Below are positions 1,036-62,113 of a stretch of DNA of 64,000 bases, piece by piece. The notes under the pieces are model-generated. The model made no database searches. It was not told where the DNA came from and saw only the letters and a list, made by a program, of their open reading frames with translations. The stretch is taken from NCBI GenBank assembly GCA_964016885.1, contig OZ024740.1, positions 66,278,001-66,342,000 of the forward strand, given 5' to 3'. The stretch comes from Eledone cirrhosa (Eukaryota). The position numbers and the translations under genes were made by a program. Position 1 is the first letter of the stretch, and every line of letters starts with the position of its first letter.

Positions 1036-1707
1036 TTATTTGTAAGTTGTGATGTTGCTGTTCCACTCATATTCTCTATTTAATTTTGGTTTTAATTCTT
1101 TTATGCTTACTGCCTCTGTAATTTGCCTAAACATTGCGTCTTTTCTGTGTGTGGATTCTATTTTTATTTCTATGCTCTCTAATCTACCCCTGTGTTCTAT
1201 CTTAGCATGTTGGTAGAGCACAGATGATTCTTTATTATCTTGGAGGTCTCGCCAGTGTTCATTTATTCGTTCCCCTATACTACGAGCTGTCTCACCTATG
1301 TACACTATATTTTTGTTTCTACATTGTCCTTCAGTACATCTTATGCTATACACTACATTTCTAGTTTTACAGTTAATATGTGGGCTTATTTTACAGGTTA
1401 TACATTTCTTATCTATACATGAGGGTCTTTGGAACGGGTATGTCTTGCTAATAAGTGTTTTTACGGAGGTACCAGGTCTTTCTACTATCTTAATATTGAG
1501 ATTATGTTTATTTAGGGCCCTTCTAAATGTGTAAGCTAGTTCGCCTCTAGGGGTTGTATTGATGAACATTACACTCTGGTATTTATTGCTATCATACCAT
1601 GAGTTTATTCTATTGGCCTTGTTCCTAGTTCTTTCTATTCTATTCCAAAATGTGCTCCTATACAAGAGGCAGGTCCCATTTATGTCATTATTTACCATTT
1701 TTTCCAT
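1036..1707 (-). CDS. PLE GIY-YIG endonuclease domain (continuation of RT ORF across a 1-nt frameshift)
   Basis: CxxxxCxxC linker, NVVYSIRC..C..YIGETARS..R..EH, conserved E and LN motif; overlaps the RT ORF end at an A6 run. Confidence 0.9.
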   Translation of the reverse strand: MEKMVNNDINGTCLLYRSTFWNRIERTRNKANRINSWYDSNKYQSVMFINTTPRGELAYTFRRALNKHNLNIKIVERPGTSVKTLISKTYPFQRPSCIDKKCITCKISPHINCKTRNVVYSIRCTEGQCRNKNIVYIGETARSIGERINEHWRDLQDNKESSVLYQHAKIEHRGRLESIEIKIESTHRKDAMFRQITEAVSIKELKPKLNREYEWNSNITTYK

Positions 1708-3542
1708 TTGGTTCTGGCTCCTTTATACACTCTGATTCTATCTCTCTGATTGTAGCCAGAGAACTGCATACGGTGGACGAAGTGTTGTATGTGTCTCTCT
1801 AGTTCTTCGGGGTTGCACATGCGGGACACATTTCTCATCACCCGTACCAAATCCGCAATCAGTATGTTGATTTTGGTATGATCCGAAATGGCCGAGTTTC
1901 GGTGGATCAGATGTTTGGAAGTCATGGGTTTGGCATAATGGGAATGGAGGATTTGTTTTTGGTTGTTAATGGTATCTAACCAGAGCTCTGTGTCTAGTAC
2001 AGGTAATCGATGGTTGGGGTGTCTACTTGGGTAGTCTATAGTAACTCTAATGCTCTGGTGGATGGAGTTTGCTATTTGCTGGATGCTTTCCATTGTGCTT
2101 TTCTCTAGTTCCTGACTGTTCTTTAGTGGGGGTGTCTTAACTACGATGTTTATATCATCTACGTAGCGGGAGTACATTATCAGGGTTAAGCTGTCTTCTA
2201 ATTGTTCATTAAGTTTTTGTTTAAGTCTACTGTCCCACCATACCATGAATAAGTTAGTTATGTCGCCTGCAATGCTAACACCAATGGCTGCTCCTTCCTC
2301 TTGGGCATATGTTTTACCATTAAATTTGAACATATGTTCCTTAAGGGTTAATTTTATGCTGGCCCCTACCGCATGTGCAATCATTTTCTTCAGTTCATCG
2401 TGGTTTTCGGGTGTCCGTATGGCTCTGGTCCACCCGTTCCATCTATCTGTGTGGGTTTTCTTGGCCATTGAGGTAATGGTAGTTGGTCTGCCTCTTGCTG
2501 GTCTTGTAGGGCACAGGTTGCTAAGGTCATAAGTGTCTAGGTAACTATTACTATGGGTAATCTTAAGTAGAAGTCCCAGCTCACTGGTATCAATCCCACG
2601 GAACTCAACCTTGCTCTCGCTGATCATTTCTACGCATTTCTCCACAGCAAAATCCACGACAATAGATGGATACAGGGACACAACATCCATACTGCCTATT
2701 ATGCAGTTTGTTAGGTCCCCAGATCGGTTACCCGCGCCGATTCTGCTGAGGAGGTCCTCCGTGCTGTCACACACATCTGGGGACATCTCAATGATGGGGC
2801 GTATGATCAGGGAGAGGAAGTAGGACAGTCTGTAGTTACTAGCAATGTTAGCCCCACAGACTGGCCGTGTTGGTGGTCCCGCGATAGGGTCCCAGCCCGT
2901 TTTATGGTCTTTTCGAAGCCCATACAACGCCGGCACGTCATTGTTCCAGGCCTGGAAGTTGTTGGCAGTCCTTTTGTTGGGCTGCATTATATTCGTCCAC
3001 ATCACCATATGGGCATTGAGGGCTTTTTCTCTATCATCATGCTCCTGTGGTGTTACCTCTCTTGTGTTAGTGATGTGGGGTTGCATTGCCTGGATGTAGT
3101 TTGGCAGGCTGTCAACCGACATTCTGTCAGACTTGTCTGTTGGAAAACATGCTATCTCTCCATTACGCGAGCGCTGCATGAGCTTACGCAAGCCATTTGC
3201 AGATTCTTCTCCCAGTTGCTGGGCCTCTATTCTATTATGCTTCTTGCTATACTGTTCTATAATATTTCTAAGTTCGGATTTAGCTATACTAAATTGTGCT
3301 TCTGTTTGTTCATCGACCTGCGACGGCAACTGCGTGCGTTTGTTAAATGGCAAAGTCGTGGCGTGGACTCGTCGTAGGTCGAATGATTTATCGGAGGGGT
3401 TATAAAACGGAGAGTTCCAGGCTGCTGCTTTATGTGTACTAGTGCTATTATTATTGTTAGTTGTGTTGTTTCTATTTCTATTTCCACCAACAGCCTCATG
3501 GTTGATTCTATGTCTCTCATAATTACTCCTGTCTCTTTCCAC
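1692..3542 (-). CDS. PLE reverse transcriptase (main part of frameshifted polyprotein)
   Basis: Motifs LYGLRKDHK..PTRPVC, GSMDVVSLYPSI, QEEGAAIG, YSRYVDDI, LPVLDTELW, YAKPM. Confidence 0.92.
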   Translation of the reverse strand: MERDRSNYERHRINHEAVGGNRNRNNTTNNNNSTSTHKAAAWNSPFYNPSDKSFDLRRVHATTLPFNKRTQLPSQVDEQTEAQFSIAKSELRNIIEQYSKKHNRIEAQQLGEESANGLRKLMQRSRNGEIACFPTDKSDRMSVDSLPNYIQAMQPHITNTREVTPQEHDDREKALNAHMVMWTNIMQPNKRTANNFQAWNNDVPALYGLRKDHKTGWDPIAGPPTRPVCGANIASNYRLSYFLSLIIRPIIEMSPDVCDSTEDLLSRIGAGNRSGDLTNCIIGSMDVVSLYPSIVVDFAVEKCVEMISESKVEFRGIDTSELGLLLKITHSNSYLDTYDLSNLCPTRPARGRPTTITSMAKKTHTDRWNGWTRAIRTPENHDELKKMIAHAVGASIKLTLKEHMFKFNGKTYAQEEGAAIGVSIAGDITNLFMVWWDSRLKQKLNEQLEDSLTLIMYSRYVDDINIVVKTPPLKNSQELEKSTMESIQQIANSIHQSIRVTIDYPSRHPNHRLPVLDTELWLDTINNQKQILHSHYAKPMTSKHLIHRNSAISDHTKINILIADLVRVMRNVSRMCNPEELERHIQHFVHRMQFSGYNQRDRIRVYKGARTKWKKW

Positions 3543-3546
3543 TGGC

Positions 3547-4173
3547 TCAATGTTGTTTATCTACCCTATTTTGTGTGTCTGTGTGTTCGTCTTGGTTATT
3601 CTCTTTGTCCTTAGTCTCCCATCTCCTTTTCCTTTTAATCCTATTACTTTCTCTTATTTCTCGGATTTCTGTGCTACTGTCATTACTTGTTTTCTGTGTC
3701 TGTGTGTTTGTTAAGATTGTGGTGGTGGTGAGAGGCATTGAATGCGTGTGTGTTGCTATTGTTGTTGTTGTTGATGTGTGTGTTGTTGCTATTGTTGTCT
3801 CCGTGTGTGTTATCGTTGTTGTGTGTGTTGTTATTGTTGTTTGTGTCTGCGTGTCTGTTGTTGTTGTATCTGGGTATGTTTCTGTTGTTTTTGTTGTTGT
3901 TGTTATTGTTGTTTGTGTCTGTGTGTCTGTTGTTGTTGGGATGTGTGTTGTATATGTGTGTGCGTATATTGATGCTTTTGTTTTTGATGCTCCAGCGTAG
4001 TTTTGTAAATGATTTTCTATTTCTGACAGACAACTAATCATATTTACCTTCTTGAATGTCGCAAATTTGGGTGGCAGACGTAACACAGACATTTCATTAT
4101 TATCTATTTCCGTGTTTCCATAAATGTTGGTATTTTCGTTGTTGAACTCCTCTGATAATGAGGTGTCGGCCAT
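3547..4173 (-). pseudogene. N-terminal region of the PLE polyprotein with (ACA)n low-complexity insert, frameshifted
   Basis: VLRLPPKFA..EIE then KSFTKLRW in another frame resembles the PLE N-terminal motif; followed by Thr/Asn-rich repeats. Confidence 0.6.
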
Positions 4174-4601
4174 GTTGATACCGTCAATTTTGTCGGGATA
4201 TCTATTGGTATACTCTATAGTATCCTGATTTAGCTTTGCCTGTTAAAGTGCTTATCACATTCTTGAGTAATGTACTGTTCTTCGGGGCGTATAAGGCTTA
4301 TAAATATTATTTTTTCTGCTGGTGTGGTGATTTTAGCTATTTCTTGAATTAGGTTACACACACACACATAGAACAAACAACTTACAATTAAGGACAAAAT
4401 GAAAACACACACACACATATAGAACAAACAACCAACCAACAATAAATAAATAAATAAATAAACAAATAGATAAATGAACACAAACACACACAGACACCCG
4501 GATGTGGAGCATGCGCAAACTGAGCACACAACACACACACAGAAACAAAATGGCGTAGGATAGAAGAAAGGAAAGGCACAGAAACGAAGAAAGGAATCCC
4601 C

Positions 4602-4646
4602 AGTCACTGAAGAGGTCACAGAGTGTGTGACGAAAGGACTATGACT
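4602..4646 (+). ncRNA. Minimal type I hammerhead ribozyme in inverted pLTR
   Basis: AGUCA-CUGAAGA-G-GUCACA gagug UGUGAC-GAAA-GGAC-UA-UGACU; canonical core, CUA cleavage triplet. Confidence 0.8.
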
Positions 4647-10265: not shown

Positions 10266-10316
<51 letters not shown>

Positions 10317-10319
<3 letters not shown>

Positions 10320-10806
10320 TAGTAAAAAGGAAAAGAAAATGCTGACGAATTTTTCCCAGTGAATAATAGTTCAATTAGGAATAAGCAAAATTAGTAATAA
10401 GTATTAGTTAGTATTCAGTTTTAGCTTTAAATGTTTACCGGTTGCGCATTTCTAATGCTTTTCAAAAATAATTTTGATATAGCGCTCGTGATTGTTGCTC
10501 TAATCTGATCAGTTTTGGGGATTCTTCCTGTTTTATGCGAAAAGGGTCGCTGCAGAGGTATTAAGATTTGGTTGGTTGTTGAATGTCACGTGAATAAGCG
10601 TTATAATTTCGCGCCAAATCGTGTTGTAAAAATTCTTGTAGTCAAAACAATTTTGATTGGTCGTTAGAAGTCACATGAATGTTAAAATTGATTTTAGCGC
10701 GAACTGCTTTCGCGCCAAATGCAGGTTTGTCGAAGAGTGTCCTTTTCCGCTTGATTGAGTTGCAGCTATGTTGAGAAGTCACTGCAAAATATGTATATTG
10801 AGACAA

Positions 10807-11809: not shown

Positions 11810-12232
11810 AAAGAATAGAGGTGTAACACACAAGTTATTATATATTGGTAAATGGAATAGAAAATGCTGACAAATTGTTCACAGTTGAAAAATGGTTTAA
11901 TTAGGAATAAAAGAGTATTAGTGATTGTATGGGTTAGTATTCAGTTGTGGTTTAAAGTTTTTAAGTTTTTACCGGTTGCGCATTTCTAAATGCTTTTCAA
12001 AAATAATTTTGAGATAGAGTGTCCGTGCTGTTTGCTCTGATCAGAGCAAACAGCACGGACACTCTATCTCAAAATTATTTTTGAAAAGCATTTAGAAATG
12101 CGCAACCGGTAAAAACTTAAAAACTTTAAACCACAACTGAATACTAACCCATACAATCACTAATACTCTTTTATTCCTAATTAAACCATTTTTCAACTGT
12201 GAACAATTTGTCAGCATTTTCTATTCCGTTTA

Positions 12233-17608: not shown

Positions 17609-19029
17609 ACAGAACCCCAGGATGATATCATCAAAATCACTGTAATGGGACACAGGAGAGAGGAGTTGCCCCGAATCAGTGGAGGATCAGTAACATCGTC
17701 CCAGTGCCAAAGATGGGAGATCTCTCTAACACCAACAACTACAGGCGGATCTCACTGACGTCACTTGTGGCAAAGACCCTCAACAGGATTATTCTTAACA
17801 GGATCCAGCCTGAGATGGAGAAGAAGCTCAGGGAACACCAGAACGGCTTCAGAGAGGGTAGATAAACCACCAGTCACATCCTGATACTGAGGAGGATATT
17901 AGAGGGAGCTAGAGCAAAGTGCCTTCCTGCGGTCACTGTTTTCATTGACTTTAGGAAGGCCTTTGATTCTGTGGACCGTTACTGCCTGATGAAGATCTTA
18001 CAGGCTTATGGAATCCCCAAGAAGATAGTGGACCTGATATCACTGCTCTACACCAACCCCAAAGCCCAAGTCATTACACCTGATGGGATGACAGAGTTCT
18101 TTGAGATAATGGCTGGAGTGCTCCAGGGAGATACATTGGCTCCCTACCTTTTTATCATCGTAGTGGACTATTGTATGCGCCTTGCACTGGAGAAACACCA
18201 GGACTCTGGCTTTACTGTAGCACCGGCTCAGAGCAGGAGAGTTAGGGCGAAAAGGGTATCGGATGCTCAATTTGCCGACGACATAGTTTTACTGGCAAAT
18301 ACAGTGAAGGAGGCAGAGGATTTGATGCGGGAGGTTGAGAATGTGTCGATGAGTGTGGGGCTGAGAATGAATGAGACTAAAACAAAATATCTGGTAGAGA
18401 ATGTTGAGAAGCCAGAGGGGATCACTAATGTAGGCGGGAAGCCGCTAGAATTGGTTGAGGGCTTCCTGTATTTGGGAGCAAAGATTCGGAATACGGAAGA
18501 TGGTGTGGTTGAGAGGAAGAGCAAGCCCTGGGCGGCGTGCCACAGCTTGAGATCGGTGTGGAAGTCCGACCTTCGTAGAGACATGAGAGTCCGCCTCTTC
18601 ATTGCTGTAGTGGAGTCTGTGCTGCTGTATGGGTCTGAGACTTAGACACTGACCAAGAAACTCACTCAGATGGTGGATGGGTGCTACACGAGAATGCTGA
18701 GGATGGCTCTGAACATTAATCAGTATACACTGAGGATGAAAAACTCAGATCTGTATGGGAGCATCCAAAAAATCAGCTCAAAGGTGACACAGGGGAGACT
18801 GAGGTTAGCTGGACATGCTCACCGACATCCAGAGTTGACATTGCACTCAGTGCTCCTTTGGGAGGCCCTACATGGACACACTAGAAGTGGAAGACCAAGG
18901 TTAATGTATGGTGATGCCCTAAGGACAGACACTGGTCTGTTGGAGACGCAGGACATGGTGGCGGTAACGAGGGACAGAGACCGCTGGAGAGAACTCGTCC
19001 ATGGATCTCGGGAATTTTACCCGCCTTAG
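17609..19029 (+). pseudogene. 5'-truncated RTE-type LINE (RT domain plus C-terminus) with in-frame stops
   Basis: VPVPKMGDLS..NYRRISL, QNGFR, FIDFRKAFDSV, GVLQGDTLAPYLF, QFADDIVL, FLYLGA; stops near 17862 and 18643; TA flanks. Confidence 0.93.
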
Positions 19030-41877: not shown

Positions 41878-41934
41878 CTGCTATATATATTTCGGTGATA
41901 CCCATTATTCAACTGCTATGACCTCATCAGGCAG
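41878..41934 (-). ncRNA. Type I hammerhead with a degenerate tandem copy at about 41980-42036
   Basis: CUGC-CUGAUGA-GGUCAUA..UAUCACC-GAAA-UAUAUA-UA-GCAG. Confidence 0.72.
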
Positions 41935-45063: not shown

Positions 45064-45367
45064 GTTTTGTGGTTTTGCTATAAACACTACAAACCCTCCA
45101 TCTCAGTTCTACTTTTGAAAAGCACAAGAAATGCGAAACCAGTAAATGAACCAAATAAATTTATTTAAAAAAAAAAGACGCCAGTTGCAATTTTGAATTC
45201 ATCTTTCTCCTTATAACTTCACTCGTGTAGAAGACCTCGTTTTTTTTCATTTTGTAAAAAAACGCAATTTCTAGTATATATATACATATTCTGACCTTAC
45301 ATTTTCAAGGGCGGTGCCCCAGCATGGCCTCAGCCGAATGGCTGCAAGAGGTAAAATAATTTTAGGA

Positions 45368-52560: not shown

Positions 52561-52606
52561 TGCTGACAGTGTTTCGTCCACACTATAAGTGGGACTCATC
52601 AGAGCA
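52561..52606 (-). ncRNA. Canonical minimal type I hammerhead ribozyme
   Basis: UGCU-CUGAUGA-GUCCCAC uuaua GUGUGGAC-GAAAC-ACU-GUC-AGCA. Confidence 0.88.
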
Positions 52607-54141
52607 TAAAGAGTGATTACATATTACACAAGCAATAACAAATCCAAGACATTGAAGAAATAAAAAATAAAAAATAAACATTGAAAAATAAGCATTGAAA
52701 AATAATAAGAAGTGCTAACAGTCACAGTTGGGCAGGGTGCTGTTAACATACAGTTACATACAAGCATACGCATTAGCATGAGCACCCGCATGCGACCACA
52801 CAACAGGCAGCCATATAGTATAGACTAATACAAAAAACCAATACAATAACATATAGACTAATACAAATAACTAATACAATAACATATCATGGACGAGTAT
52901 GCAAAAGCTAAGAGATGAATGGTGGATATACAATGGGTAAAAATACAATGGGTAAAAGTAAGATAAACAATAGATACAAAATAGATTAACCATGGATAAG
53001 AGAAAGAGAATAGATAAGGAATAGACAAGAATAGATAAGATAGATAGGAGTAGATAAAAATAGATAAAAAATAGATAAAAAATGGATAAAAAATAGACAA
53101 ATAATATATATAAAAAATATAAAAAATATATATATAAAAAAATAAAGATAGTAGAGATAAAGGGTAAAGAATAAAATAAAATAAAATTATATAAAATAAA
53201 ATACAATGAAATAAAATAAAATAAAGTAAAGTGAGATAAGATATACATTTTTAGAATATATTTCTTGAATATATCAGGGGCACACGAACGCCTGAAGTGT
53301 TACAGTTAGCCATATCACAACAATCAAATGCACAAATGAGATTTATAATCAACAGGTGCTATGTCCACACTCGATTGAGTTGACCATTGCAATGCAATGG
53401 AGACATCCCAGGTTAGGCAGTCGCAGAAGTTCACACTCTAAAGTCACGGGTGTGCATTCACACAGTTGAGCGGTGGGGCAATCACAAAAGGTTCACACTC
53501 AAGGCAGGAATCCATTGGTCAACAGAGGCATATCCACATCACCAGCGAGGACGTATGCAAGGAAGGTAGGTAAATTCACGGGCAGATAACTGAGTGTCAC
53601 AACGTCACAAGGGAGCAAGCAAAATCGTTTACATCAACATGAACATCAAGAGGCAGCTAAGCGGGCCGAAAGCAAGCAAGTGCAGGTGGGCTAGCTGAAA
53701 GCAAGCAAATACAGTTGGGTTAGGCGGGTTAATATGCATACTCAACAGCGCATATAAAAAATATAAAAAATATAAAAAATATAAAAAATAGCTTCAAATG
53801 CCAATATCCATGAGATCACAACATTGATGCATCCCAAGATTATACAACAATATGGTTAGTACGTATGTGCATATACACACACCACATGCATATGCAGAGA
53901 CGGTATACATATATATATATATTTATATATAGACATATACAACCACCTACACCCATACACATATAGATGTATATACAGACACACACGCACACACATACAG
54001 CGTAGGACACCCGGATCAAAGCGGATATAATACACAGAAATATCACATTAGGCCAACACAGGCTGAACAGTCGCTCACACTGGTCACAGATAATACATTC
54101 AAGATAAATTCTTACGAGGAGATGTAGCAAAATTGATCAAC

Positions 54142-54536: not shown

Positions 54537-55382
54537 GAGAATAAACGTGCTGCGGGGTTGCTAATGGGTTACATTTGAATAAATTTAGTCCTTCATCAGT
54601 GATCTTCCAACCATCATTGGTATTTCATCGCTTTAAAGACCATATACCTCTGGTTGGTGCGAGCAACGGCTAAAAAAAGTCGTTGGGACACGTAAATAAA
54701 GGGGATACGAGTGTAAACAAACAAAGATGGTGAAGCAACGAAAAGTGAGGAAGAAGGAGTCAAGTGCCAAATTTCTATAAACTTAAATTCGGTGAAATCG
54801 TGAACGAGAGAGAATAAAGACCATCAAACCTGGTTGGAACGTGAGCAAGGAAGGAATTCCGTACAGGTCTAACGGGAGGAAGAAGGGATCTAGTCTGTGA
54901 ATTCGGTGAACGTAAGTTCTGTGAAATCGTAAACGAGAGAGAGAAAAAAAGCGACCTCCCAGACCAAGGGGGCGAAAGAAAAGAATTACGCACAGGTCAA
55001 ACGGGAAGAAGGAGGAGGAGGGGGAGAGGCAGTAATAGAGAATGAGTAAGTGAAGGGTGAGGAAGAGGCTAACAGAGAGAGTGAAGGGATCTAGTCTGTG
55101 AATTCGGTGAACGTAAGTTCTGTGAAATCGTAGACGAGATAGAGAAAAAAACCGACCTATATATACATATCAGCACTATGTGTCAATAATTGTCACAAGT
55201 GTAGTGTTTGTACCAGAGTTTTCAAGTCGCTGGCTGGACTAAAATGTCACACACTTTCAGCGCATCGGTAGGGGTTCTCCTACATATATATAAAATAGTG
55301 GCCTTACTCGAAAACGAGTTGGCAGCCACCATATGTATATATATATAAGAAAGGAAATGTTCTTTATATGTGTATGAGAATG

Positions 55383-55428
<46 letters not shown>

Positions 55429-55540
55429 TATTGGTAAAAGGAAAAGAAAATGCTGACAAATTGTTCCCGGTGAAAAATAGTTTAATTAGGAATAAGTAAA
55501 AATTAGTAGTAGTATTGGTTAGTATTCAGTTTTGGTTTTA

Positions 55541-55581
55541 CATTTTACCGGTTGCGCATTTCTAATGCTTTTCAAAAATAA
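55541..55581 (-). ncRNA. Hammerhead-like fold with U3-A8 and GCAA core variants
   Basis: UUAUUU-UUGAAAA-GCAUU aga AAUGC-GCAA-CCGG-UA-AAAUG; same core at about 10433-10472, 11967-12008, 12074-12114 and 61091-61130. Confidence 0.5.
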
Positions 55582-55927
55582 TTTTGAGATAGAGCGCCCG
55601 TGATGTTTGCTCTAATCTGATTAGTTTTGGAAATTCTACTTGTTCTATGTAAAAATAGTGGCTCAAGATGTATGAAAACATTCATGTGGTCAAAACAATT
55701 TTGATTGGTCGGTAGAGGTCATGTGAATGTTAAAAATTGATTTTGCGCCAAATGTAGGTTTGTCTCGGCTGATTGAGAAGTCACTGAAAAATAAGTCTTT
55801 CAAGACAAATATGAGTGTGTGTGTGTAGTAGTAGTAAACAGGTTCGTTGTTGTGATAATGGTCAGCAGGGATGTGTGTGCGAACCGCAGCCTGCTGGCAA
55901 TTCTAATGCCTATTAAGATAAGTGTGT

Positions 55928-55993
<66 letters not shown>

Positions 55994-56207
55994 CAGAATA
56001 ATTCGTTATAGAGGGATTGGGCAGTAGGAATGTGTCTGTACGTGTGTGGGTGTTATTTTGACATGTTAAAATATATTTTTCAGCTCTTGTCTTATACGGA
56101 GAAGTGTGTGCGTGTGTGTATATGTCTCTTTGTATGTTAATGTACGCGGGTTTATGTGTGTGTGTATATATATATATATATATGTGTGTGTGTGCGTGCG
56201 TGCGTGC

Positions 56208-56305
<98 letters not shown>

Positions 56306-56750
56306 ACCAGTGTTTTTGTGATACTGGTAAAAAAGGTGTACATTATTCGATATTTTCAGTAAAAACGATTCTCTCAATAGAACATCAAAAACCTTAATAA
56401 TAAAAGTTGTGAAAGATATATAGTATTGGCGTAAGACCAAGGTGTGTGTGAGTGTCCAGATTGTACGTACTGCAAGGGGAATCCATTAGGCCTTGCCGTA
56501 TTGGAATACGTGTGTACAAATATGTATGTGCCCATCAGTGTGCAATGCATATGTGCGTATATGTAAGTGTGTGTGTCGGCACGTTTATATCTATAGACAT
56601 CAAAAGGTATGCAAATTTGTGTATGTTTGTATTGCACCATAGAACATGTGTGTCTACGTACGTCATTGTGTTTATATGTGGATAGAGATGTATGTAGGAT
56701 GTATGCTGATGTAGGTATGTATGTTGACGTGTGTATGTTGTGGGTTCGTC

Positions 56751-58222
56751 TTAGGGAGAAGTGTTTAGACGGGGTCCGTATTTGTTAATAAAGTGAGATT
56801 CCTTGCTGATGCGCTGGGTGTGAGTGGCATTATCTTTAAATTTGTAGAGGAGGAAAATTCTGAAGTTGGGATGATTTTGGACGGCACAGGTATCAATGTG
56901 TCCACTCAGTGGTATTTTCCTGTATTCCCGTATTTTAATTTGGGATCTATGGACAGTCATGCGTTGGCGGAGGCTGTTTTTTGTCTGGCCTATGTATTGT
57001 TCTCGACGACCTGAGCAAGTTAATACATATATTAGATTTTCTGATGCGCATGTGAAATTGTGTTTAACTATAAAACGTTGTCCTTCTTTGAAATAGAATT
57101 CCGAACCCTCTATTAGGTTGATACATATGCCACAGTCGCGTCTATCGCATTTTTTTACTGTGGGTTTCGTTGTTGTGGTTGGTAGTACTTTGGAATGTGC
57201 TAGGATGTTTTTCATTGACTTAGATTGTCTTTTGCTCTTTATGATATCGTGTGTTCGTAGGATTTGGTTCATTCTATGGTCCTTTTTCAACACAGGGATG
57301 TTCTGGAGGATGGTGTCAAATGCCTCATTGTTGAGGGGGTTGTGTGTGGAGATGTATGGAAAACCTTTAAGTTTCGGTTGATTTACCTTAGGGTGTCTAA
57401 GGTCCTGGGTCCTGAGTTTTAGGGCACGTTGGATTCCATTGTCAATTAGTGATGCAGGGTAGTCCCTGCCTATGAGTGTGTCCTTTAGTTCTTGTAGCCG
57501 TATGTAACAAGTGTTTTTATTGGAGACTATAGTACAGATTCTCTTGGCTATGTTGTAGGGAATATTAATTTTAAGGTGTCTAGTGTGGCAAGAGTTGAAA
57601 GGAAGATATTGCTTGGAGTCTGTGGGCTTGTAGTATATGTCTGTTTCTATTTTTTTGTTATGAATCTTAATGAGGATGTCGAGGAAGGGGAGTTGTTGAT
57701 GGCTGTATTCCATCGTGAAGTTCATATTCGTGTTGAGCCCATTTATAAGGGTGTGAAATTCTTTAGGTTTCTCGATGTTTTCGTGCCAAAGGATGAAGCA
57801 GTCATCTAGATATCGCTTCCAGTTCCTTTCTATGTGTAAGTGGAGAGTGTTTCGAAATTTGTTTAGTACTTTAGTGTAGAGGTTTATTTCCAGGAATCCC
57901 ATGACTAGGTTGGCATAAGTGGGGGCTGTTTTCGTTCCCATAGCGGTCCCAGATTTCTGTTTGTAGGGTTTGTTATTGAAAACGAAGTAATTGTTCTCCG
58001 AGATAAATTTGAGTCCCTCTATCACGAATTCTTTTTTGATGCGCTGTGGAAGTTCATTTTGGTAATTATCCAACCAAAATTGGATAGCTTCTATTCCTAG
58101 TTTGTGGGGGATGTTGGAGTATAGGTTGACTACATCGAACGTCACTAGTAGGGTTTGTGCAGAAAGGGGCATATTAGGGAGGTGATTGAGCATATCTAGG
58201 TCGTCTCTTATATAGCTTTTTG
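56751..58222 (-). CDS. PLE RT core, CxxxxCxxC linker and GIY-YIG endonuclease
   Basis: LVTFDVVNLYSNIP, QKSGTAMGTKTAPTYANL, WKRYLDDCF, LPFLDI, YYKPTD, CDRRDCGIC, NLIYVLTC..YIGQT..R..H. Confidence 0.95.
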
Positions 58223-59005
58223 ACGTGTTTGAGAAAAGGCTTGAGAAGGGTATCAATGAAGTTGCTAAGGCGGTGGGTTTCGCAAGCGGGGCCTGATATT
58301 ATAGGTCTTAATTTGAGATCATTGGGTGAGGGGACATTGATGACTCTGTCTGTGGCTTTCTTGCATGCCTTACCTATTAATTCGCGCTTATGTACTTTAG
58401 GGATACCGTAGAAAAGGCTGGATTTACTTGTGAAGTCTGTGATGAAGCTGAATTCCTTCTTATTGAGTCCTTCTTTGTGTTGGTTGATCAGAGTTTTTAG
58501 GTTTCTCATCATTTTCTGTTGATTGTAGTGTTCAGCCTTTTCGTAGTATGTTTCGTTTACCAAAGTGGAGAGCGCTAAGTTGATATAGAATTCTGTCTCC
58601 ATTAGGACTACTGTACTCCCTTTATCAGCCTCTTTAATTGTAATGGTTCTGTCGGTTTTTAATCTATTTAATTCTTCCCATTCTTTCTTGTTGAGGTTTG
58701 GCTTGTGTTTTTGTCTCTGCAAGTGTTGGTAAGGGAAGTTTCTGATGTGTTCACAGAATTCGTTCAGGATTTTATTGCTACCTTTTGATGGGGTGTAATT
58801 GCTTCTATTTCTGGCTAATGATTCCACCTCATTGTACTGGTCGAACAGTTCTTCACTGAGTCGTAACTTTCTACAGAAGTATTTGATGTCTACCTTCATT
58901 TCATAGTAGTTAGGACGTTGTGGGGTCGGTGTGAATTTAAGACCTTTGGAGAGTAAGGTTTATAAGGTTGGGTGTTGGTTCTGCACTAGTTAGATTGATA
59001 ATTTG
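58223..59005 (-). pseudogene. N-terminal RT region of the same polyprotein (frameshifted)
   Basis: LLSKGLKFTPTP, KEADKGSTVV, FYGIPKVHK, LRPIISG; joins SYIRD across a 1-nt frameshift. Confidence 0.9.
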
Positions 59006-59624
59006 TATTACTCTCGGTTTCTACTCCCTGTCTTGTGTTATTTTGTTTGCCTGTATCTGTGTCCTGTGTCTAAAAAATGGTTGGGGTAGAGGGGTTGTCT
59101 GCTGATGTTAAGTGGTCTCCTGTGTTTGTTATAGTCCTTTTTGTTGTAAAATGTGGTTCGGGTTCGTGGTTGTAGATTGAATAGGGTGTTCCTGTATTGC
59201 GAGTATGGATGTGAGTTTCTATGTGCCATGTTTGATTGTGGTATTATAGGTGGCCTACATTGTTGGTTGTATCGTGTGGTGTGGGTTTGTTGTGTATTGT
59301 GGAAGCGAGAGTTGAGAAAATGGAAATTACCTTCCTGTCCCCTTGAAGCGGGGAAGTTGTTGCATCTATCATGGTGGTGGTATCTTTTCCCTATGTTTGA
59401 CGATGAGGCATCCGCGTACTAGTTGAGTGATTTGGTATGGTGTCTCCTTGAAGGGGGAAAGTTGTAAATGTCATTCTGGAGGAGAATATGTCTAGGGTTT
59501 TTGTTCCTTCTTATGGTAGCGAGGTTGGGAAGTTCATCTTCGGTGTGGTGCTTTCTTCTTCTTTTGTTATTGGCTGGGGGGTTTGCGAAGTTGTTGTTTG
59601 GTTCGGTTATGGGTTTTCCTATTT

Positions 59625-60338
59625 TTATGAACGGGTTATTGGAGGTGTAATCCTTTGAAAAGTCGATTCATATTGTAGGAACCAAGCGGCACTTTTTTCC
59701 CAGCGTTGAAGAGATTTCAGTTCTTCTCTGTTGCAGTCCTCTTTCCATAATTTCGAGATCTCCAGTACCTTGGGGCCTTCAGTCTTATTGTTGATTTCCA
59801 GGAGGATCTCTTCATCGATGGTTTTGATTTTTTCCTCATTTGTCTGGGCCCTCAATTTAAGAAGTTCAATTTTTGTCTTCATTTTTTCCAATGCCATTAT
59901 TTCCCTAAGGTGTCTTTTAGGTTCGGGTTCATTTGGAATGGACTTTATTTGTATTTTACGGGGGAGAGTTAGAGGGGTTGAGTTAAGTAATTTTTCATAC
60001 ATCTCCGCTTTGTTGTGATTTTGTATCATCTTCCAGAATGAGAGCTTTCTGTCTCTGAGGGATTTGTTCCATTTTGGAATTGTTCGAATTTTCATTTTGT
60101 ATGAATCAATCTCACATGGTTCTTCGTTGGTTTTTCCTGGGTTGGTAGTAGTGAACATGGTTTGGATAGTATCTTAAAGGTTTTGAAGTGTATCGGAGGG
60201 TTTGTATACGGTGACGGTTTCCTCATTTGTGGAGTCAAGTTTGTCGACCAGCACAGATAGGTTGGTGTTAATTTTCTTGAGTTCCTGTAGAATCTCTTCA
60301 TTTGTGTTGATAAGAGTTGTATCTGTTTTTGTTGGCAT
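59625..60338 (-). pseudogene. Coiled-coil-rich ORF1 or N-terminal extension of the PLE, with one in-frame stop near 60175
   Basis: ATG at 60338 (MPTKTDTTLINTNEEILQELKK..) continuing into the 177-aa ORF rich in E/K/L heptads. Confidence 0.65.
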
Positions 60339-60612
60339 TTTCTGTATCTCGTGTGAGGATATGATATTTAAAAGAATAGAGGTCTAACACACGAGTTATG
60401 ATATATTGGTAAAAGGAAAAAAAATGCTGACAAATTGTTTCCAGTGAAAAATAGTTTAATTAGGAATAAGTAAAAATTAGTAATAGTATTGGTTAGTATT
60501 CAGTTTCCGTATGAGACAAGAGCTGAAAAATATATTTTAACATGTTAAAATATCACCCACACACGTACAGAAACATTCCTACTGCCCGATCCCTCTACCA
60601 CGAATTACTCTG

Positions 60613-60699
<87 letters not shown>

Positions 60700-61321
60700 C
60701 TCACACACACACACTCACACACACAAACACACACACACACACCCACCCACACACTTATCTTAATAGGCATTAGAACTGACAGCAGGCTGCGGTTCGCACA
60801 CACATCCCTGCTGACCATTATCACAACGAACCTCTTTACTACTACTACACACACACACACATATTGTCTTGAAAGACTTATTTTTCAGTGACTTCTCAAT
60901 CAGCAGAGACAAACCTACATTTGGCGCAAAATCAATTTTTAACATTCACATGACCTCTACCGACCAATCAAAATTGTTTTGACCACAAGAATTTTTTCAT
61001 ACATCTGGAGCCACTTTTTTTTACATAAAACAGGTAGAATTTCCAAAACTAATCAGCTCATAGCAAACATCACGGGCGCTCTATCTCAAAATTATTTTTG
61101 AAAAGCATTAGAAATGCGCAACCGGTAAAACTTAAAACCAAAACTGAATACTAACCAATACTACTACTAATTTTTACTTATTCCTAATTAAACTACTTTT
61201 CACTGGGAACAATTTGTCACCATTTTCTTTTCCTTTTACCAATATATCATAACTCGTGTGTTACACATCTATTCTTTTAAATATATATATATTTACATAT
61301 ATATATATGTATATATATATA

Positions 61322-61389
<68 letters not shown>

Positions 61390-62113
61390 CATATATATAT
61401 ATACATTCTCATTAACACACATATATACAGACACATATGTATGGAGAAATAAGAAACTAGGTAAGTTGTGAAATGCATATAAAATAGTGTAAACATATAT
61501 CATGAATGTGACGTGACACAAAAGTTAAGCATTAGTCACACTTAACTTTTGCTTTTACATTTTGATATTAGCATTAACAAAAAATTATTATACTATTGTA
61601 CATGGAGAAGACAATCGTAAAGTTCCGACTCAGTAATTTGTGGAGAGTGAAGTAAACAATTTCATAGATTTTCACATATAAAATGTTCCTAACTGACGTG
61701 TATGTAATATGCTTCCTGTTTCTATACCTGCATCTCCTGCTTGATTTCTGGTGCTAATGACATCAATTAATTACTTATTGAGGCTATTTATGTTGCTTTC
61801 TTTGCCGGGTTCCTGTTTGATTTACATAAACAAATCCTTTGATCAAATGTATTACAACTATAACCACCCAGGTTTCTTTTACCAAAATCCTACGAAGCCA
61901 ACAGTACAATGTCATTTGAAGTGTAATTTTCTTAGATGTGAGGGAAATCAGATTCGGCGGAAGTCTGAAAGCTATTTTTAGCACATCAAAAGCCAAATTC
62001 CTTATGGGCTAAAACCTGTCTTAGTGAATATTACAAATATTTAGACATCCATTCCACTAACGCCTCAATAGAGGCGTATACATGTTTTAACTTCCATAGA
62101 ATTTTTAATTTAA

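What the first reader, a model, noticed from the sequence alone, without database searches (positions are those of the whole stretch)
61091..61130. Double-variant hammerhead (UUGAAAA ... GCAA) conserved in five Neptune-like pLTR copies
At the position where a PLE HHR is expected, the pLTR has UUGAAAA, a GCAUU/AAUGC hairpin, GCAA, a palindromic ACCGGU stem III and a GUA site. Both deviations (U3-A8 and A13C) recur in copies from separate, diverged insertions, so they are family features rather than decay. A13C is normally considered harmful, so this is either an unusual active core or a vestige. Stem I is weak and AU-rich.
Basis: partly seen in the sequence, partly recalled or inferred. Interest (0 to 1): 0.72.

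Follow-up and report, generated by a model that had tools for sequence, protein, structure and literature searches.

The report
Altered hammerhead motif in young retrotransposon
A very young, very abundant Penelope-like jumping gene carries near its 3' end a descendant of the hammerhead self-cutting RNA in which one normally fixed core letter (A13) reads C in about 11,500 genomic copies; this change likely weakens or silences cutting, which would mean the element spreads without needing its ribozyme.

Summary
The motif UUGAAAA-GCAUU/AAUGC-GCAA-ACCGGU-A lies at 61098-61127. It recurs at four more window sites and in 11,524 genomic copies; a reversed-pattern control gave 0.

It sits about 1 kb 3' of the RT/GIY-YIG ORF2 of a Penelope-like element (PLE). 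Five intact 784-aa ORF2 copies from four chromosomes differ by 0-7 of 2,352 nt.

A sister PLE family (ORF2 56% identical) has the same motif at the same place with canonical GAAA, in 14,180 copies. The motif is the only well-conserved part of their 3' regions: 26/30 positions against 28-54% elsewhere. Two stem pairs differ by compensating changes.

So this is a true hammerhead descendant, and C13 is a fixed feature of one clade, not decay. U3-A8 is already published; I found no paper describing C13.

Whether C13 still cuts is untested. No RNA run is on record, and the C13 clade is too young to show selection. My reading is that it is likely weakened or silent and tolerated, because published work shows PLE insertion in vitro does not need hammerhead cleavage.

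No canonical hammerhead occurs elsewhere in the intact unit.

The scan reached the same reading earlier on other DNA of this genome (e1-9508013, e1-9582942).

The parts
61098..61127 (+). Hammerhead-derived motif, the finding itself: U3 U4 G5 A6 A7 A8 A9, helix II GCAUU/AAUGC with loop AGA, G12 C13 A14, palindromic A15.1-CCGG-U16.1, A17. The predicted cleavage site would lie after 61127.
60506..61344 (+). Inverted, 5'-truncated copy of the element's 3' end (pseudo-LTR) that holds the motif. It is 90.7% and 95.0% identical, in two aligned pieces, to 55331-56100(-).
   Evidence: Self-BLAST.
55331..60506 (-). Decayed Penelope-like element. ORF2 remnants lie at 58955-59092, 58219-58971 and 56754-58220 (90-94% aa identity to the intact 784-aa ORF2). 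The 3' UTR follows at 55331-56750.
   Evidence: Pfam RVT_1 (26.8 bits, below the 29.6 cut-off) and GIY-YIG (30.8 bits, above 22.6); tblastn.
55546..55575 (-). Same motif in the element's own 3' UTR, about 1.2 kb after the ORF2 end.
60359..60506 (-). Partial direct upstream pseudo-LTR piece. It starts at the position equivalent to 61141, which is 14 nt after the predicted cleavage site, and so lacks the motif.
   Evidence: 94.6% identity to 61141-61288.
10436..10465 (-). Motif copy in an older sublineage of the same family. The copy spans about 10271-10620 and its genomic relatives are 84-92% identical to it.
11970..12000 (-). Motif copy with one extra U in loop II (GCAUUUAGAAAUGC). This is the left arm of a head-to-head pair meeting at 12040/12041.
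12081..12111 (+). Right arm of the head-to-head pair. The 111-nt offset between the two arms recurs at other genomic loci.
   Evidence: listing.
45115..45144 (+). Decayed copy of the sister family's motif: UUGAAAA, GCA...UGC, canonical GAAA, ACCAGU, A.
61290..61400 (.). (TA)n microsatellite at which the copy ends. Other copies in the window and in fetched loci also end in (TA)n.

Best explanation
This is a true evolutionary descendant of the minimal, dimer-type hammerhead ribozyme of Penelope-like elements, and its clade-wide A13-to-C change likely weakens or abolishes self-cleavage without harming the element's spread. Shown: the motif lies in the 3' UTR (pseudo-LTR) of an autonomous PLE with ORF1 (455-aa frame) and ORF2 (784 aa, RT plus GIY-YIG), 131 nt before the end of the 4.7-kb unit. 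Shown: a sister PLE family in the same genome has the same motif at the same place with canonical GAAA. Shown: the C13 clade is very young and very abundant. Inferred: A13 is ancestral and C13 arose once at the base of the clade. Inferred: the RNA would pair with a second copy through the ACCGGU palindrome, as published for PLE hammerheads. Inferred: cutting is much reduced, because A13 belongs to the invariant core. Inferred: this is tolerated because PLE target-primed reverse transcription uses uncut RNA. The rest of the motif is intact either because the clade is too young to have decayed or because the fold keeps some non-cutting use.
For: Identity as a hammerhead descendant:
- Every core position except 13 fits the consensus in its published U3-A8 covariant form. 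G10.1-C11.1, A15.1-U16.1, H17 = A and the palindromic CCGG are all present (criteria from PMC4209133, and PMC3088659).
- The sister family reads UUGAAAA GCAG AAGAA CUGC GAAA ACCGGU A in the same register.
- In 7 of 8 fetched loci of the sister family's 775-aa ORF2, this motif lies about 1.05 kb 3' of the ORF on the same strand. The eighth locus is interrupted.
- The two ORF2s are 56% identical over 771 aa.
- Between the families' pseudo-LTR majorities the motif is 26/30 identical. The bins -20..0 and -50..-20 give 70% and 68%. The rest of the element body gives 28-54%, which is the level of a forced alignment.
- 2 of 11 pairs change on both sides: 2.3-1.3 U-A/C-G and 10.4-11.4 U-A/G-C.
- Cofolding predicts the helix II hairpin plus an intermolecular ACCGGU duplex: -22.9 kcal/mol for the dimer against 2 x -7.3 for monomers.

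C13 as a clade feature:
- 11,524 copies carry C13.
- All 12 loci fetched around ORF2 copies of this family carry it.
- In C13-type context only 118 copies have another base at position 13. Of the 100 listed, 53 are T, 32 A and 15 G, which looks like ordinary decay.

Youth and success of the clade:
- 25 of 84 scored ORF2 matches have the full 784-aa open frame.
- Five such copies differ by 0-7 of 2,352 nt.

Tolerance of a dead ribozyme:
- Hammerhead core mutants of an Anolis PLE do not affect insertion in vitro, cleavage there needs the protein, and no RNA-seq reads start at the site (PMC11167929, passages).
- Naiad and Chlamys PLEs thrive without canonical hammerheads (PMC8557442, passages).
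- Head-to-head copies of both families keep the whole motif plus about 33-40 nt upstream, so their templates were uncut.
Against: - No cleavage data of any kind exist for this motif, and no RNA run is on record for this DNA.
- That A13C is strongly deleterious is recalled from classical mutagenesis of other hammerheads (Ruffner, Stormo and Uhlenbeck 1990, not read here). It was never measured in a U3-A8, PLE-type, protein-assisted context. PMC3088659 shows that some core variants keep activity.
- Since A13C arose, the motif has taken no substitution between sublineage majorities (0/30), while the flanks took 19/199 between the two main sublineages. The chance of that is about 0.05. The only changes lie at structurally tolerant places: one extra U in loop II and a 9-nt insertion just 3' of helix I. 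This hints that the fold is still under constraint, which fits an active core or another function as well as it fits youth.
- Within 20 copies of the older sublineage, substitutions are fewer in the motif (6/600) than in the flanks (160/6,168; p = 0.005). However, the motif window ranks only 42nd lowest of 317.
- The predicted lowest-energy monomer ties U3-A6 into a competing hairpin (UCAAAA/UUUUGA), in both families.
Confidence: 0.6

Rival explanations
1. The U3-A8 / C13 core is a working ribozyme. It would be an unusual natural hammerhead core that still cuts after A17 when two copies pair through ACCGGU or when the element's protein assists folding.
For: - All other core letters, both stems and the palindrome are intact in the family majority of three sublineages: 0/30 substitutions against 19/199 in the flanks of the two main sublineages.
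- The changes that did occur lie in loop II and beyond helix I.
- The family is extremely successful.
- PLE hammerheads are in any case weak in vitro and protein-assisted (PMC4209133; PMC11167929), so the usual rules may not transfer.
- Some natural core variants cleave (PMC3088659).
Against: - A13 is in the invariant consensus used by every published search.
- All 56 representative metazoan PLE hammerheads in Supplementary Fig. S3 of PMC4209133 read GAAA, one of them AGAAA, although those searches required GAAA.
- The C13 clade is so young (pseudo-LTR majorities 90-97% alike) that an intact motif proves little.
- Helix I is three A-U pairs.
- Success of the family does not require cleavage.
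Confidence: 0.22
2. The motif no longer cuts but is kept for a non-catalytic job. It could act as an RNA-RNA dimerisation site through the ACCGGU palindrome, or as a folded landmark recognised by the element's RT/EN protein near the 3' end.
For: - The conserved island between the two families runs about 50 nt upstream of the hammerhead proper (68-70% against 28-54% elsewhere), including an invariant AUCUCAA. Cleavage alone does not explain that.
- The dimer through ACCGGU is predicted to be stable.
- Protein binding near the hammerhead is suggested for another PLE (PMC11167929).
Against: No direct evidence exists. The upstream conservation could equally serve hammerhead regulation, since the competing hairpin UCAA/UUGA is present in both families. 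The young age of the clade explains the intact motif without any function.
Confidence: 0.15
3. The resemblance to a hammerhead is a chance look-alike in an AU-rich repeat.
For: - Rfam finds no hammerhead here at the gathering threshold or at E <= 10 in 60000-62000.
- Helix I is minimal.
- The core is AU-rich.
Against: - Rfam also misses the sister motif with the canonical core. It gives only E = 0.11 to a canonical CUGAUGA...GAAAC...GUC hammerhead in this window. The negative is therefore uninformative.
- Position, register, core letters, palindrome and covarying stems are shared with an A13 family whose ORF2 is only 56% identical.
Confidence: 0.03

Closest known systems
Minimal (dimer-type) hammerheads in the pseudo-LTRs of metazoan Penelope-like elements (Cervera and De la Pena 2014, PMC4209133; main text parts 1-2 and Supplementary Fig. 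S3 read)
   Same: Both lie in the end repeat of an RT/GIY-YIG element and have type I layout. Both have a G10.1-C11.1 closing pair, a helix II longer than helix I, a palindromic 15.2-16.2 with no loop III, and an A/U-rich short helix I. Both occur in thousands of mostly solitary or oppositely oriented copies. The U3-A8 covariation is described there for Cercyon elements of Schistosoma mansoni (about 1,300 hits; UUGAAAAA in Fig. S3).
   Different: Position 13 is C instead of A. All 56 representatives in Fig. S3 read GAAA, one of them AGAAA. There is no extra nucleotide between A9 and G10.1. Helix I is only 3 bp, although 2 bp is reported for Drosophila virilis.
The sister PLE family in the same genome (775-aa ORF2, motif UUGAAAA GCAG-AAGAA-CUGC GAAA ACCGGU A; 14,180 copies)
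   Same: The place in the 3' UTR, the register, the U3-A8 pair, the palindrome, the A17 site and the (TA)n targets are the same. The head-to-head short copies and the C-x4-C-x2-C linker before GIY-YIG are also shared.
   Different: It has A13. Helix II is 4 bp (G10.4-C11.4) rather than 5 bp (U10.4-A11.4, U10.5-A11.5). The third helix I pair is C-G rather than U-A. The rest of the 3' region cannot be aligned.
Natural hammerhead core variants (Perreault et al. 2011, PMC3088659; section 8 and methods passage read)
   Same: U3-A8 covariation occurs in nature and is active. Some deviations from the core, such as A6C, U15.1-A16.1 and insertions like U13a, retain low activity.
   Different: No substitution at A13 is listed there. 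In that work, mutant cores in repeated elements were treated as cryptic dead copies and set aside.
Poseidon PLE of Anolis carolinensis (Frangieh et al. 2024, PMC11167929; passages read)
   Same: The PLE hammerhead is dispensable for target-primed reverse transcription in vitro. Uncut RNA is the template, and cleavage needs the protein.
   Different: That hammerhead has a canonical core and overlaps the ORF start. Here the motif is in the 3' UTR, 131 nt before the unit end, and carries C13.

Membership tests
Hammerhead ribozyme, type I, minimal PLE form | Box 1: C3 U4 G5 A6 N7 G8 A9, or the covariant U3...A8 | tested here: met
   UUGAAAA at 61098-61104. U3-A8 is accepted in print as an active covariant (PMC3088659; PMC4209133).
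Hammerhead ribozyme, type I, minimal PLE form | Box 2: G12 A13 A14 | tested here: not met
   The motif reads G C A at 61117-61119. C is a substitution, not an insertion, because the sister family has GAA in the same register and at the same length. I therefore do not file it as a consensus hammerhead, only as a descendant of one.
Hammerhead ribozyme, type I, minimal PLE form | Helix II closed by G10.1-C11.1 | tested here: met
   GCAUU/AAUGC, 5 bp. The fourth pair covaries with the sister family: U-A in 5 of 9 aligned sequences, G-C in 2, G-U in 1, unpaired in 1.
Hammerhead ribozyme, type I, minimal PLE form | A15.1-U16.1, H17, and a palindromic helix III allowing a double hammerhead | tested here: met
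   A-CCGG-U then A. An intermolecular 6-bp duplex is predicted by cofolding.
Hammerhead ribozyme, type I, minimal PLE form | Helix I pairing 1.x with 2.x | tested here: inconclusive
   Only three A-U pairs. The third pair covaries with the sister family (U-A in 4, C-G in 3, unpaired in 2 of 9). The lowest-energy monomer prefers a competing hairpin.
Hammerhead ribozyme, type I, minimal PLE form | Site-specific self-cleavage after position 17 | not testable with these tools
   No RNA run is listed for this DNA, and no biochemical data exist.
Hammerhead ribozyme, type I, minimal PLE form | Match to Rfam hammerhead covariance models | tested here: not met
   No match. The test has no power for this class, because the sister motif with the canonical core is also missed.
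Penelope-like element, EN+ with C-terminal endonuclease (Neptune/Nematis type) | RT followed by a C-terminal GIY-YIG endonuclease in one ORF | tested here: met
   The intact 784-aa ORF2 scores RVT_1 30.3 bits (cut-off 29.6) and GIY-YIG 28.4 bits (cut-off 22.6). The window copy was scored.
Penelope-like element, EN+ with C-terminal endonuclease (Neptune/Nematis type) | Zn-finger-like CX2-5CxxC motif in the linker before the endonuclease (criterion from PMC8557442) | tested here: met
   KKCDRPNCGIC in the C13 family and KKCGRSNCGTC in the sister family.
Penelope-like element, EN+ with C-terminal endonuclease (Neptune/Nematis type) | Pseudo-LTRs from partial tandems, an inverted 5'-truncated upstream copy, and microsatellite targets | tested here: met
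   A tandem with a 4,734-nt period shows 99.7% identity over 3,871 nt. The window holds an inverted upstream copy. Copies end in (TA)n.
Penelope-like element, EN+ with C-terminal endonuclease (Neptune/Nematis type) | RT groups with Neptune references in a tree | not tested
   No reference PLE proteins were available from a tool, so 'Neptune-like' remains a label based on the features above.

The most novel reading that the evidence does not exclude
C13 is not damage but a working alternative hammerhead core. The U3-A8/C13 motif would then be the first natural hammerhead that cuts with a pyrimidine at position 13, perhaps only as a double hammerhead or with the element's protein. A further possibility is that it is cut in trans by the intact core of the co-resident A13 sister family, which shares the same ACCGGU pairing site.
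Probability: 0.2. Interest if true: 0.8.

Novelty: new variant of a known kind. Interest (0 to 1): 0.5.

Why it matters
What hammerheads do for Penelope-like elements has been an open question since 2014. They are nearly universal in these elements, yet they cut poorly in vitro and are dispensable for insertion in vitro.

This genome offers a natural experiment. Two young, intact, high-copy sister families carry the same hammerhead at the same place. One has the canonical GAAA (14,180 copies) and the other has GCAA (11,524 copies).

If C13 is dead, a PLE has reached more than ten thousand copies with a broken ribozyme. That would be in vivo support for the view that cleavage is not needed for spread. 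If C13 cuts, the hammerhead core rules need revising, and descriptor searches that require GAAA miss whole families.

Either answer needs only a 70-nt RNA and a cleavage assay against the A13 sister motif.

Tried and rejected
- **Rfam.** The whole window at the gathering threshold gave 0 matches. The window at E <= 10 gave 269 matches; none of the 150 listed is a hammerhead and 119 were not shown. The region 60000-62000 at E <= 10 gave no hammerhead. These negatives carry no weight. The canonical-core sister motif is also missed, and a canonical hammerhead at 52566-52632(-) reaches only E = 0.11.
- **RNA evidence.** The look-up of sequencing runs listed no RNA holder: four runs of one study, all kept as contigs and of unknown kind. 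I did not lay them, because contigs cannot show RNA ends.
- **5' ends of copies at the predicted cleavage site.** I tabulated BLAST boundaries of pseudo-LTR pieces in all fetched loci: 100, 109 and 21 aligned pieces for the three queries. There is no cluster at the site, but the bins are dominated by break points between subfamilies and the loci were not sampled for this purpose. The result is uninformative.
- **Constraint within the family.** In 20 copies of the older sublineage the motif has fewer substitutions than the flanks (p = 0.005) but ranks only 42nd of 317 windows. An earlier figure of 5.7% for the flanks counted gaps and was dropped.
- **Constraint among C13 sublineages.** Their majorities are 90-97% alike along the 3' UTR body, from -90 to +140 relative to the motif start. 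The test has little power.
- **More lineages with covarying 10.2-11.2.** Only 10 genomic hits were found and only 2 are compensatory.
- **An intermediate lineage** with C13-type stems and A13, or the reverse. Only decay-level numbers were found: 118 and 54 copies.
- **Quantitative effect of A13C.** No paper in the library holds 'A13C' together with 'hammerhead'. The held supplement of the pairwise-mutagenesis study PMC9901934 contains figure legends only.
- **Alternative reading of GCAA** as G12 plus an inserted C. Rejected: it would make 15.1-16.1 a C-G pair and the site GGU, and the sister family has the same length.
- **Phylogenetic placement** among named PLE clades was not attempted, for lack of reference sequences.

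Full report
**1. What is there**

At 61098-61127(+) the window reads UUGAAAA GCAUU AGA AAUGC GCA ACCGGU A, preceded by AAAAUUAUUU and followed by AAACUUAAAACC.

In hammerhead numbering this is:
- U3 U4 G5 A6 A7 A8 A9;
- helix II of 5 bp closed by G10.1-C11.1;
- G12 C13 A14;
- A15.1, C, C, G, G, U16.1;
- A17.

Helix I is three A-U pairs.

The exact 30-mer occurs three times in the window, with no match in any of 100 shuffles. Two further copies with one extra U in loop II lie head-to-head around 12040/12041. A diverged relative at 45115-45144(+) reads GAAA where the others read GCAA.

**2. The host element**

The motif copy of the finding lies in an inverted, 5'-truncated copy (60506-61344, +) of the 3' end of a decayed Penelope-like element. 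That element occupies 55331-60506 on the minus strand and carries the same motif at 55546-55575(-). Its ORF carries RVT_1 and GIY-YIG.

In the genome, 25 of 84 scored matches to this ORF have a full 784-aa open frame, and two more have longer frames. Five such copies from four chromosomes differ from each other by 0-7 of 2,352 nt. All 12 fetched loci have the C13 motif about 1 kb 3' of ORF2.

A tandem pair on contig C5 (99.7% identical over 3,871 nt; period 4,734 nt) defines a unit of about 4,726 nt. The unit holds:
- a 455-aa open frame with no Pfam match;
- the 784-aa RT/EN frame, overlapping the first by 67 nt;
- a 1.07-kb 3' UTR, with the motif ending 131 nt before the unit end.

The linker before GIY-YIG reads C-x4-C-x2-C, and copies end in (TA)n. 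Craig et al. (PMC8557442, passages) give such a linker as a mark of Neptune and Nematis PLEs and link it to microsatellite targeting in Neptune. I did not build a tree, so 'Neptune-like' is a feature-based label.

**3. Copy numbers**

| Pattern (both strands) | Matches |
|---|---|
| TTGAAAAGC-N7-10-GCG-N-AACC-N-GTA | 25,885 |
| same, C at position 13 | 11,524 |
| same, A at position 13 | 14,180 |
| same, G or T at position 13 (by subtraction) | 181 |
| reversed-pattern control (each of the three searches) | 0 |

The C13 copies fall into three sublineages:
- loop AGA, as at 61098;
- loop UAGA, carried by the young intact elements;
- an older one represented at 10436, whose relatives are 84-92% identical to that copy.

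**4. The sister family**

The A13 copies read UUGAAAA GCAG AAGAA CUGC GAAA ACCGGU A. They belong to a second autonomous PLE with a 775-aa RT/GIY-YIG frame that is 56% identical to the 784-aa one over 771 aa. Twenty-one of 150 scored matches lie in a 775-aa open frame.

In 7 of 8 fetched loci the A13 motif lies about 1.05 kb 3' of that frame on the same strand. The eighth locus (L082) is interrupted by another element and shows none in the part fetched.

Identity between the majorities of the two families, by position relative to the motif start:

| Region | Identity |
|---|---|
| motif (0 to +30) | 26/30 |
| -20 to 0 | 70% |
| -50 to -20 | 68% |
| rest of the element body | 28-54% |
| last bin (+140 to +170), mostly (TA)n | 94% |

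The hammerhead is therefore the one well-kept island of the 3' region across a deep split. The four differences inside the motif are C13 and three positions of helix II and its loop.

On an alignment of nine copies, 2 of 11 pairs change on both sides (2.3-1.3 U-A/C-G and 10.4-11.4 U-A/G-C), and 90.9% of cells pair, against 19-46% when the partners are slid. With only two independent lineages this amounts to two compensatory events at most. That is modest, but in the right places.

Because all described hammerheads have A13, I infer that A is ancestral and that C arose once.

**5. Is there a canonical hammerhead elsewhere in the element?**

I wrote a descriptor script requiring:
- C3-G8 or U3-A8;
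- a helix II of at least 3 bp;
- GAA, or in relaxed form G-N-A;
- A15.1, a palindromic or short helix III, and U followed by H.

On an intact C13 unit it finds no GAA hammerhead on either strand. The only sense-strand G-N-A hit is the motif itself. On the sister unit it finds the A13 motif.

In the window the same script finds canonical motifs that belong to other repeats:
- 4607-4641(+), beside a second PLE at 1036-4242(-);
- 52565-52602(-);
- 41882-41930(-).

**6. Does it cut?**

This could not be tested.

*For a weakened or silent core:*
- A13 is in the invariant consensus of every search (PMC3088659).
- All 56 representative metazoan PLE hammerheads of Cervera and De la Pena read GAAA, one of them AGAAA (Suppl. 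Fig. S3), although those searches demanded GAAA.
- The classical mutagenesis result that A13 changes are very harmful is recalled, not read here.

*For tolerance of a silent core:*
- Core mutants do not affect insertion by an Anolis PLE in vitro.
- Cleavage there needs the protein.
- No reads start at the site (PMC11167929, passages).
- Naiads and most Chlamys lack canonical hammerheads yet reach very high copy numbers (PMC8557442).
- Here, head-to-head copies of both families contain the whole motif plus about 33-40 nt upstream, so their RNA templates were uncut.

*Against a silent core:*
- The motif has taken no substitution among the C13 sublineage majorities (0/30), while the flanks of the two main ones differ at 19 of 199 positions. 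The chance of that is about 0.05.
- The changes that did occur are an extra U in loop II and a 9-nt insertion just beyond helix I.
- This is suggestive of a fold still under constraint, but the clade is too young for a firm test.
- Decay at position 13 looks alike in both families: 118 non-C copies in C13 context and 54 non-A copies in the exact A13 context.

*Folding:*
- Folding predicts the helix II hairpin and a stable intermolecular ACCGGU duplex (-22.9 kcal/mol against 2 x -7.3).
- It also predicts a competing hairpin (UCAAAA/UUUUGA in the C13 family, UCAA/UUGA in the sister) that ties up U3-A6.
- The upstream AUCUCAA is invariant in all nine aligned copies.

**7. Verdict**

The motif is a genuine descendant of the PLE minimal hammerhead.
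- U3-A8 is a published, active covariation (PMC4209133, PMC3088659).
- C13 is a fixed feature of one very successful, very young PLE clade. I found it in no paper: searches, and passages.
- Because a defining core position is not met, I do not file it as a consensus hammerhead.
- Most likely (0.6) it is weakened or silent and tolerated. An active unusual core (0.22) and a retained non-catalytic role (0.15) remain open.

Two earlier notes of this scan on other DNA of the same genome reached the same reading. They are not independent evidence.

Noticed in passing
window 11970-12111; genome places listed: Head-to-head pairs of the UAGA-loop C13 copies recur with exactly the same 111-nt offset between the two motif starts. 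This holds for the window pair and for at least 5 pairs in the first 47 Mb of contig C1. In the 3 such pairs listed, both arms share the same rare base at position 13: A/A, T/T and G/G. Either both arms are copied from one RNA template with a fixed 5' end about 40 nt upstream of the motif, or the palindrome propagates as a unit. The junction forms a long perfect hairpin that draws spurious miRNA-family hits.
   Followed up: partly
window 4607-4641 (+): A canonical minimal hammerhead: CUGAAGA, one bulged G, helix II GUCAC/GUGAC, GAAA, AGGACU, A, and a 5-bp helix I (UGACU/AGUCA). It lies in inverted orientation just upstream of a second, unrelated PLE (RT and GIY-YIG ORFs at 1036-4242, minus strand; RT about 30% identical to the C13 family's).
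   Followed up: partly
window 52565-52602 (-): A canonical-core hammerhead: CUGAUGA, GUCC...GGAC, GAAAC, ACUGU, then a GUC site, with a long helix I. Rfam scores it only as a weak Hammerhead_3 hit (19.9 bits, E = 0.11). It sits in a TA-rich repeat region, and its host element was not examined.
   Followed up: partly
window 41882-41930 (-): CUGAUGA, a 30-nt helix II region, then GAA followed directly by (AU)n. This is a possible hammerhead remnant abutting a microsatellite.
   Followed up: no
L049 6799-8163 (+) (G000:C5:17091798-17093162): The intact C13 unit has a 455-aa open frame with no Pfam match directly at the unit's 5' end. It overlaps the 784-aa RT/EN frame by 67 nt. The conserved N-terminal GLKF motif of the RT/EN frame lies upstream of that frame's first Met, so ORF2 is probably reached by frameshifting or as a fusion.
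   Followed up: partly
window 60359-60506 (-): The direct upstream pseudo-LTR piece of the window's element begins 14 nt after the predicted cleavage site and so lacks the motif. This is a single case. No cluster of such 5' ends was seen in the fetched loci.
   Followed up: partly
window 17866-18645 (+): A 259-aa open frame with a strong RVT_1 match (73.8 bits, E = 2.1e-20). It belongs to a different, non-PLE retroelement.
   Followed up: no
listing: Copies of the exact A13 motif mutated at position 13 show a strand imbalance: 14 forward against 40 reverse. The parent counts are balanced (7,173 against 7,007). Unexplained.
   Followed up: no
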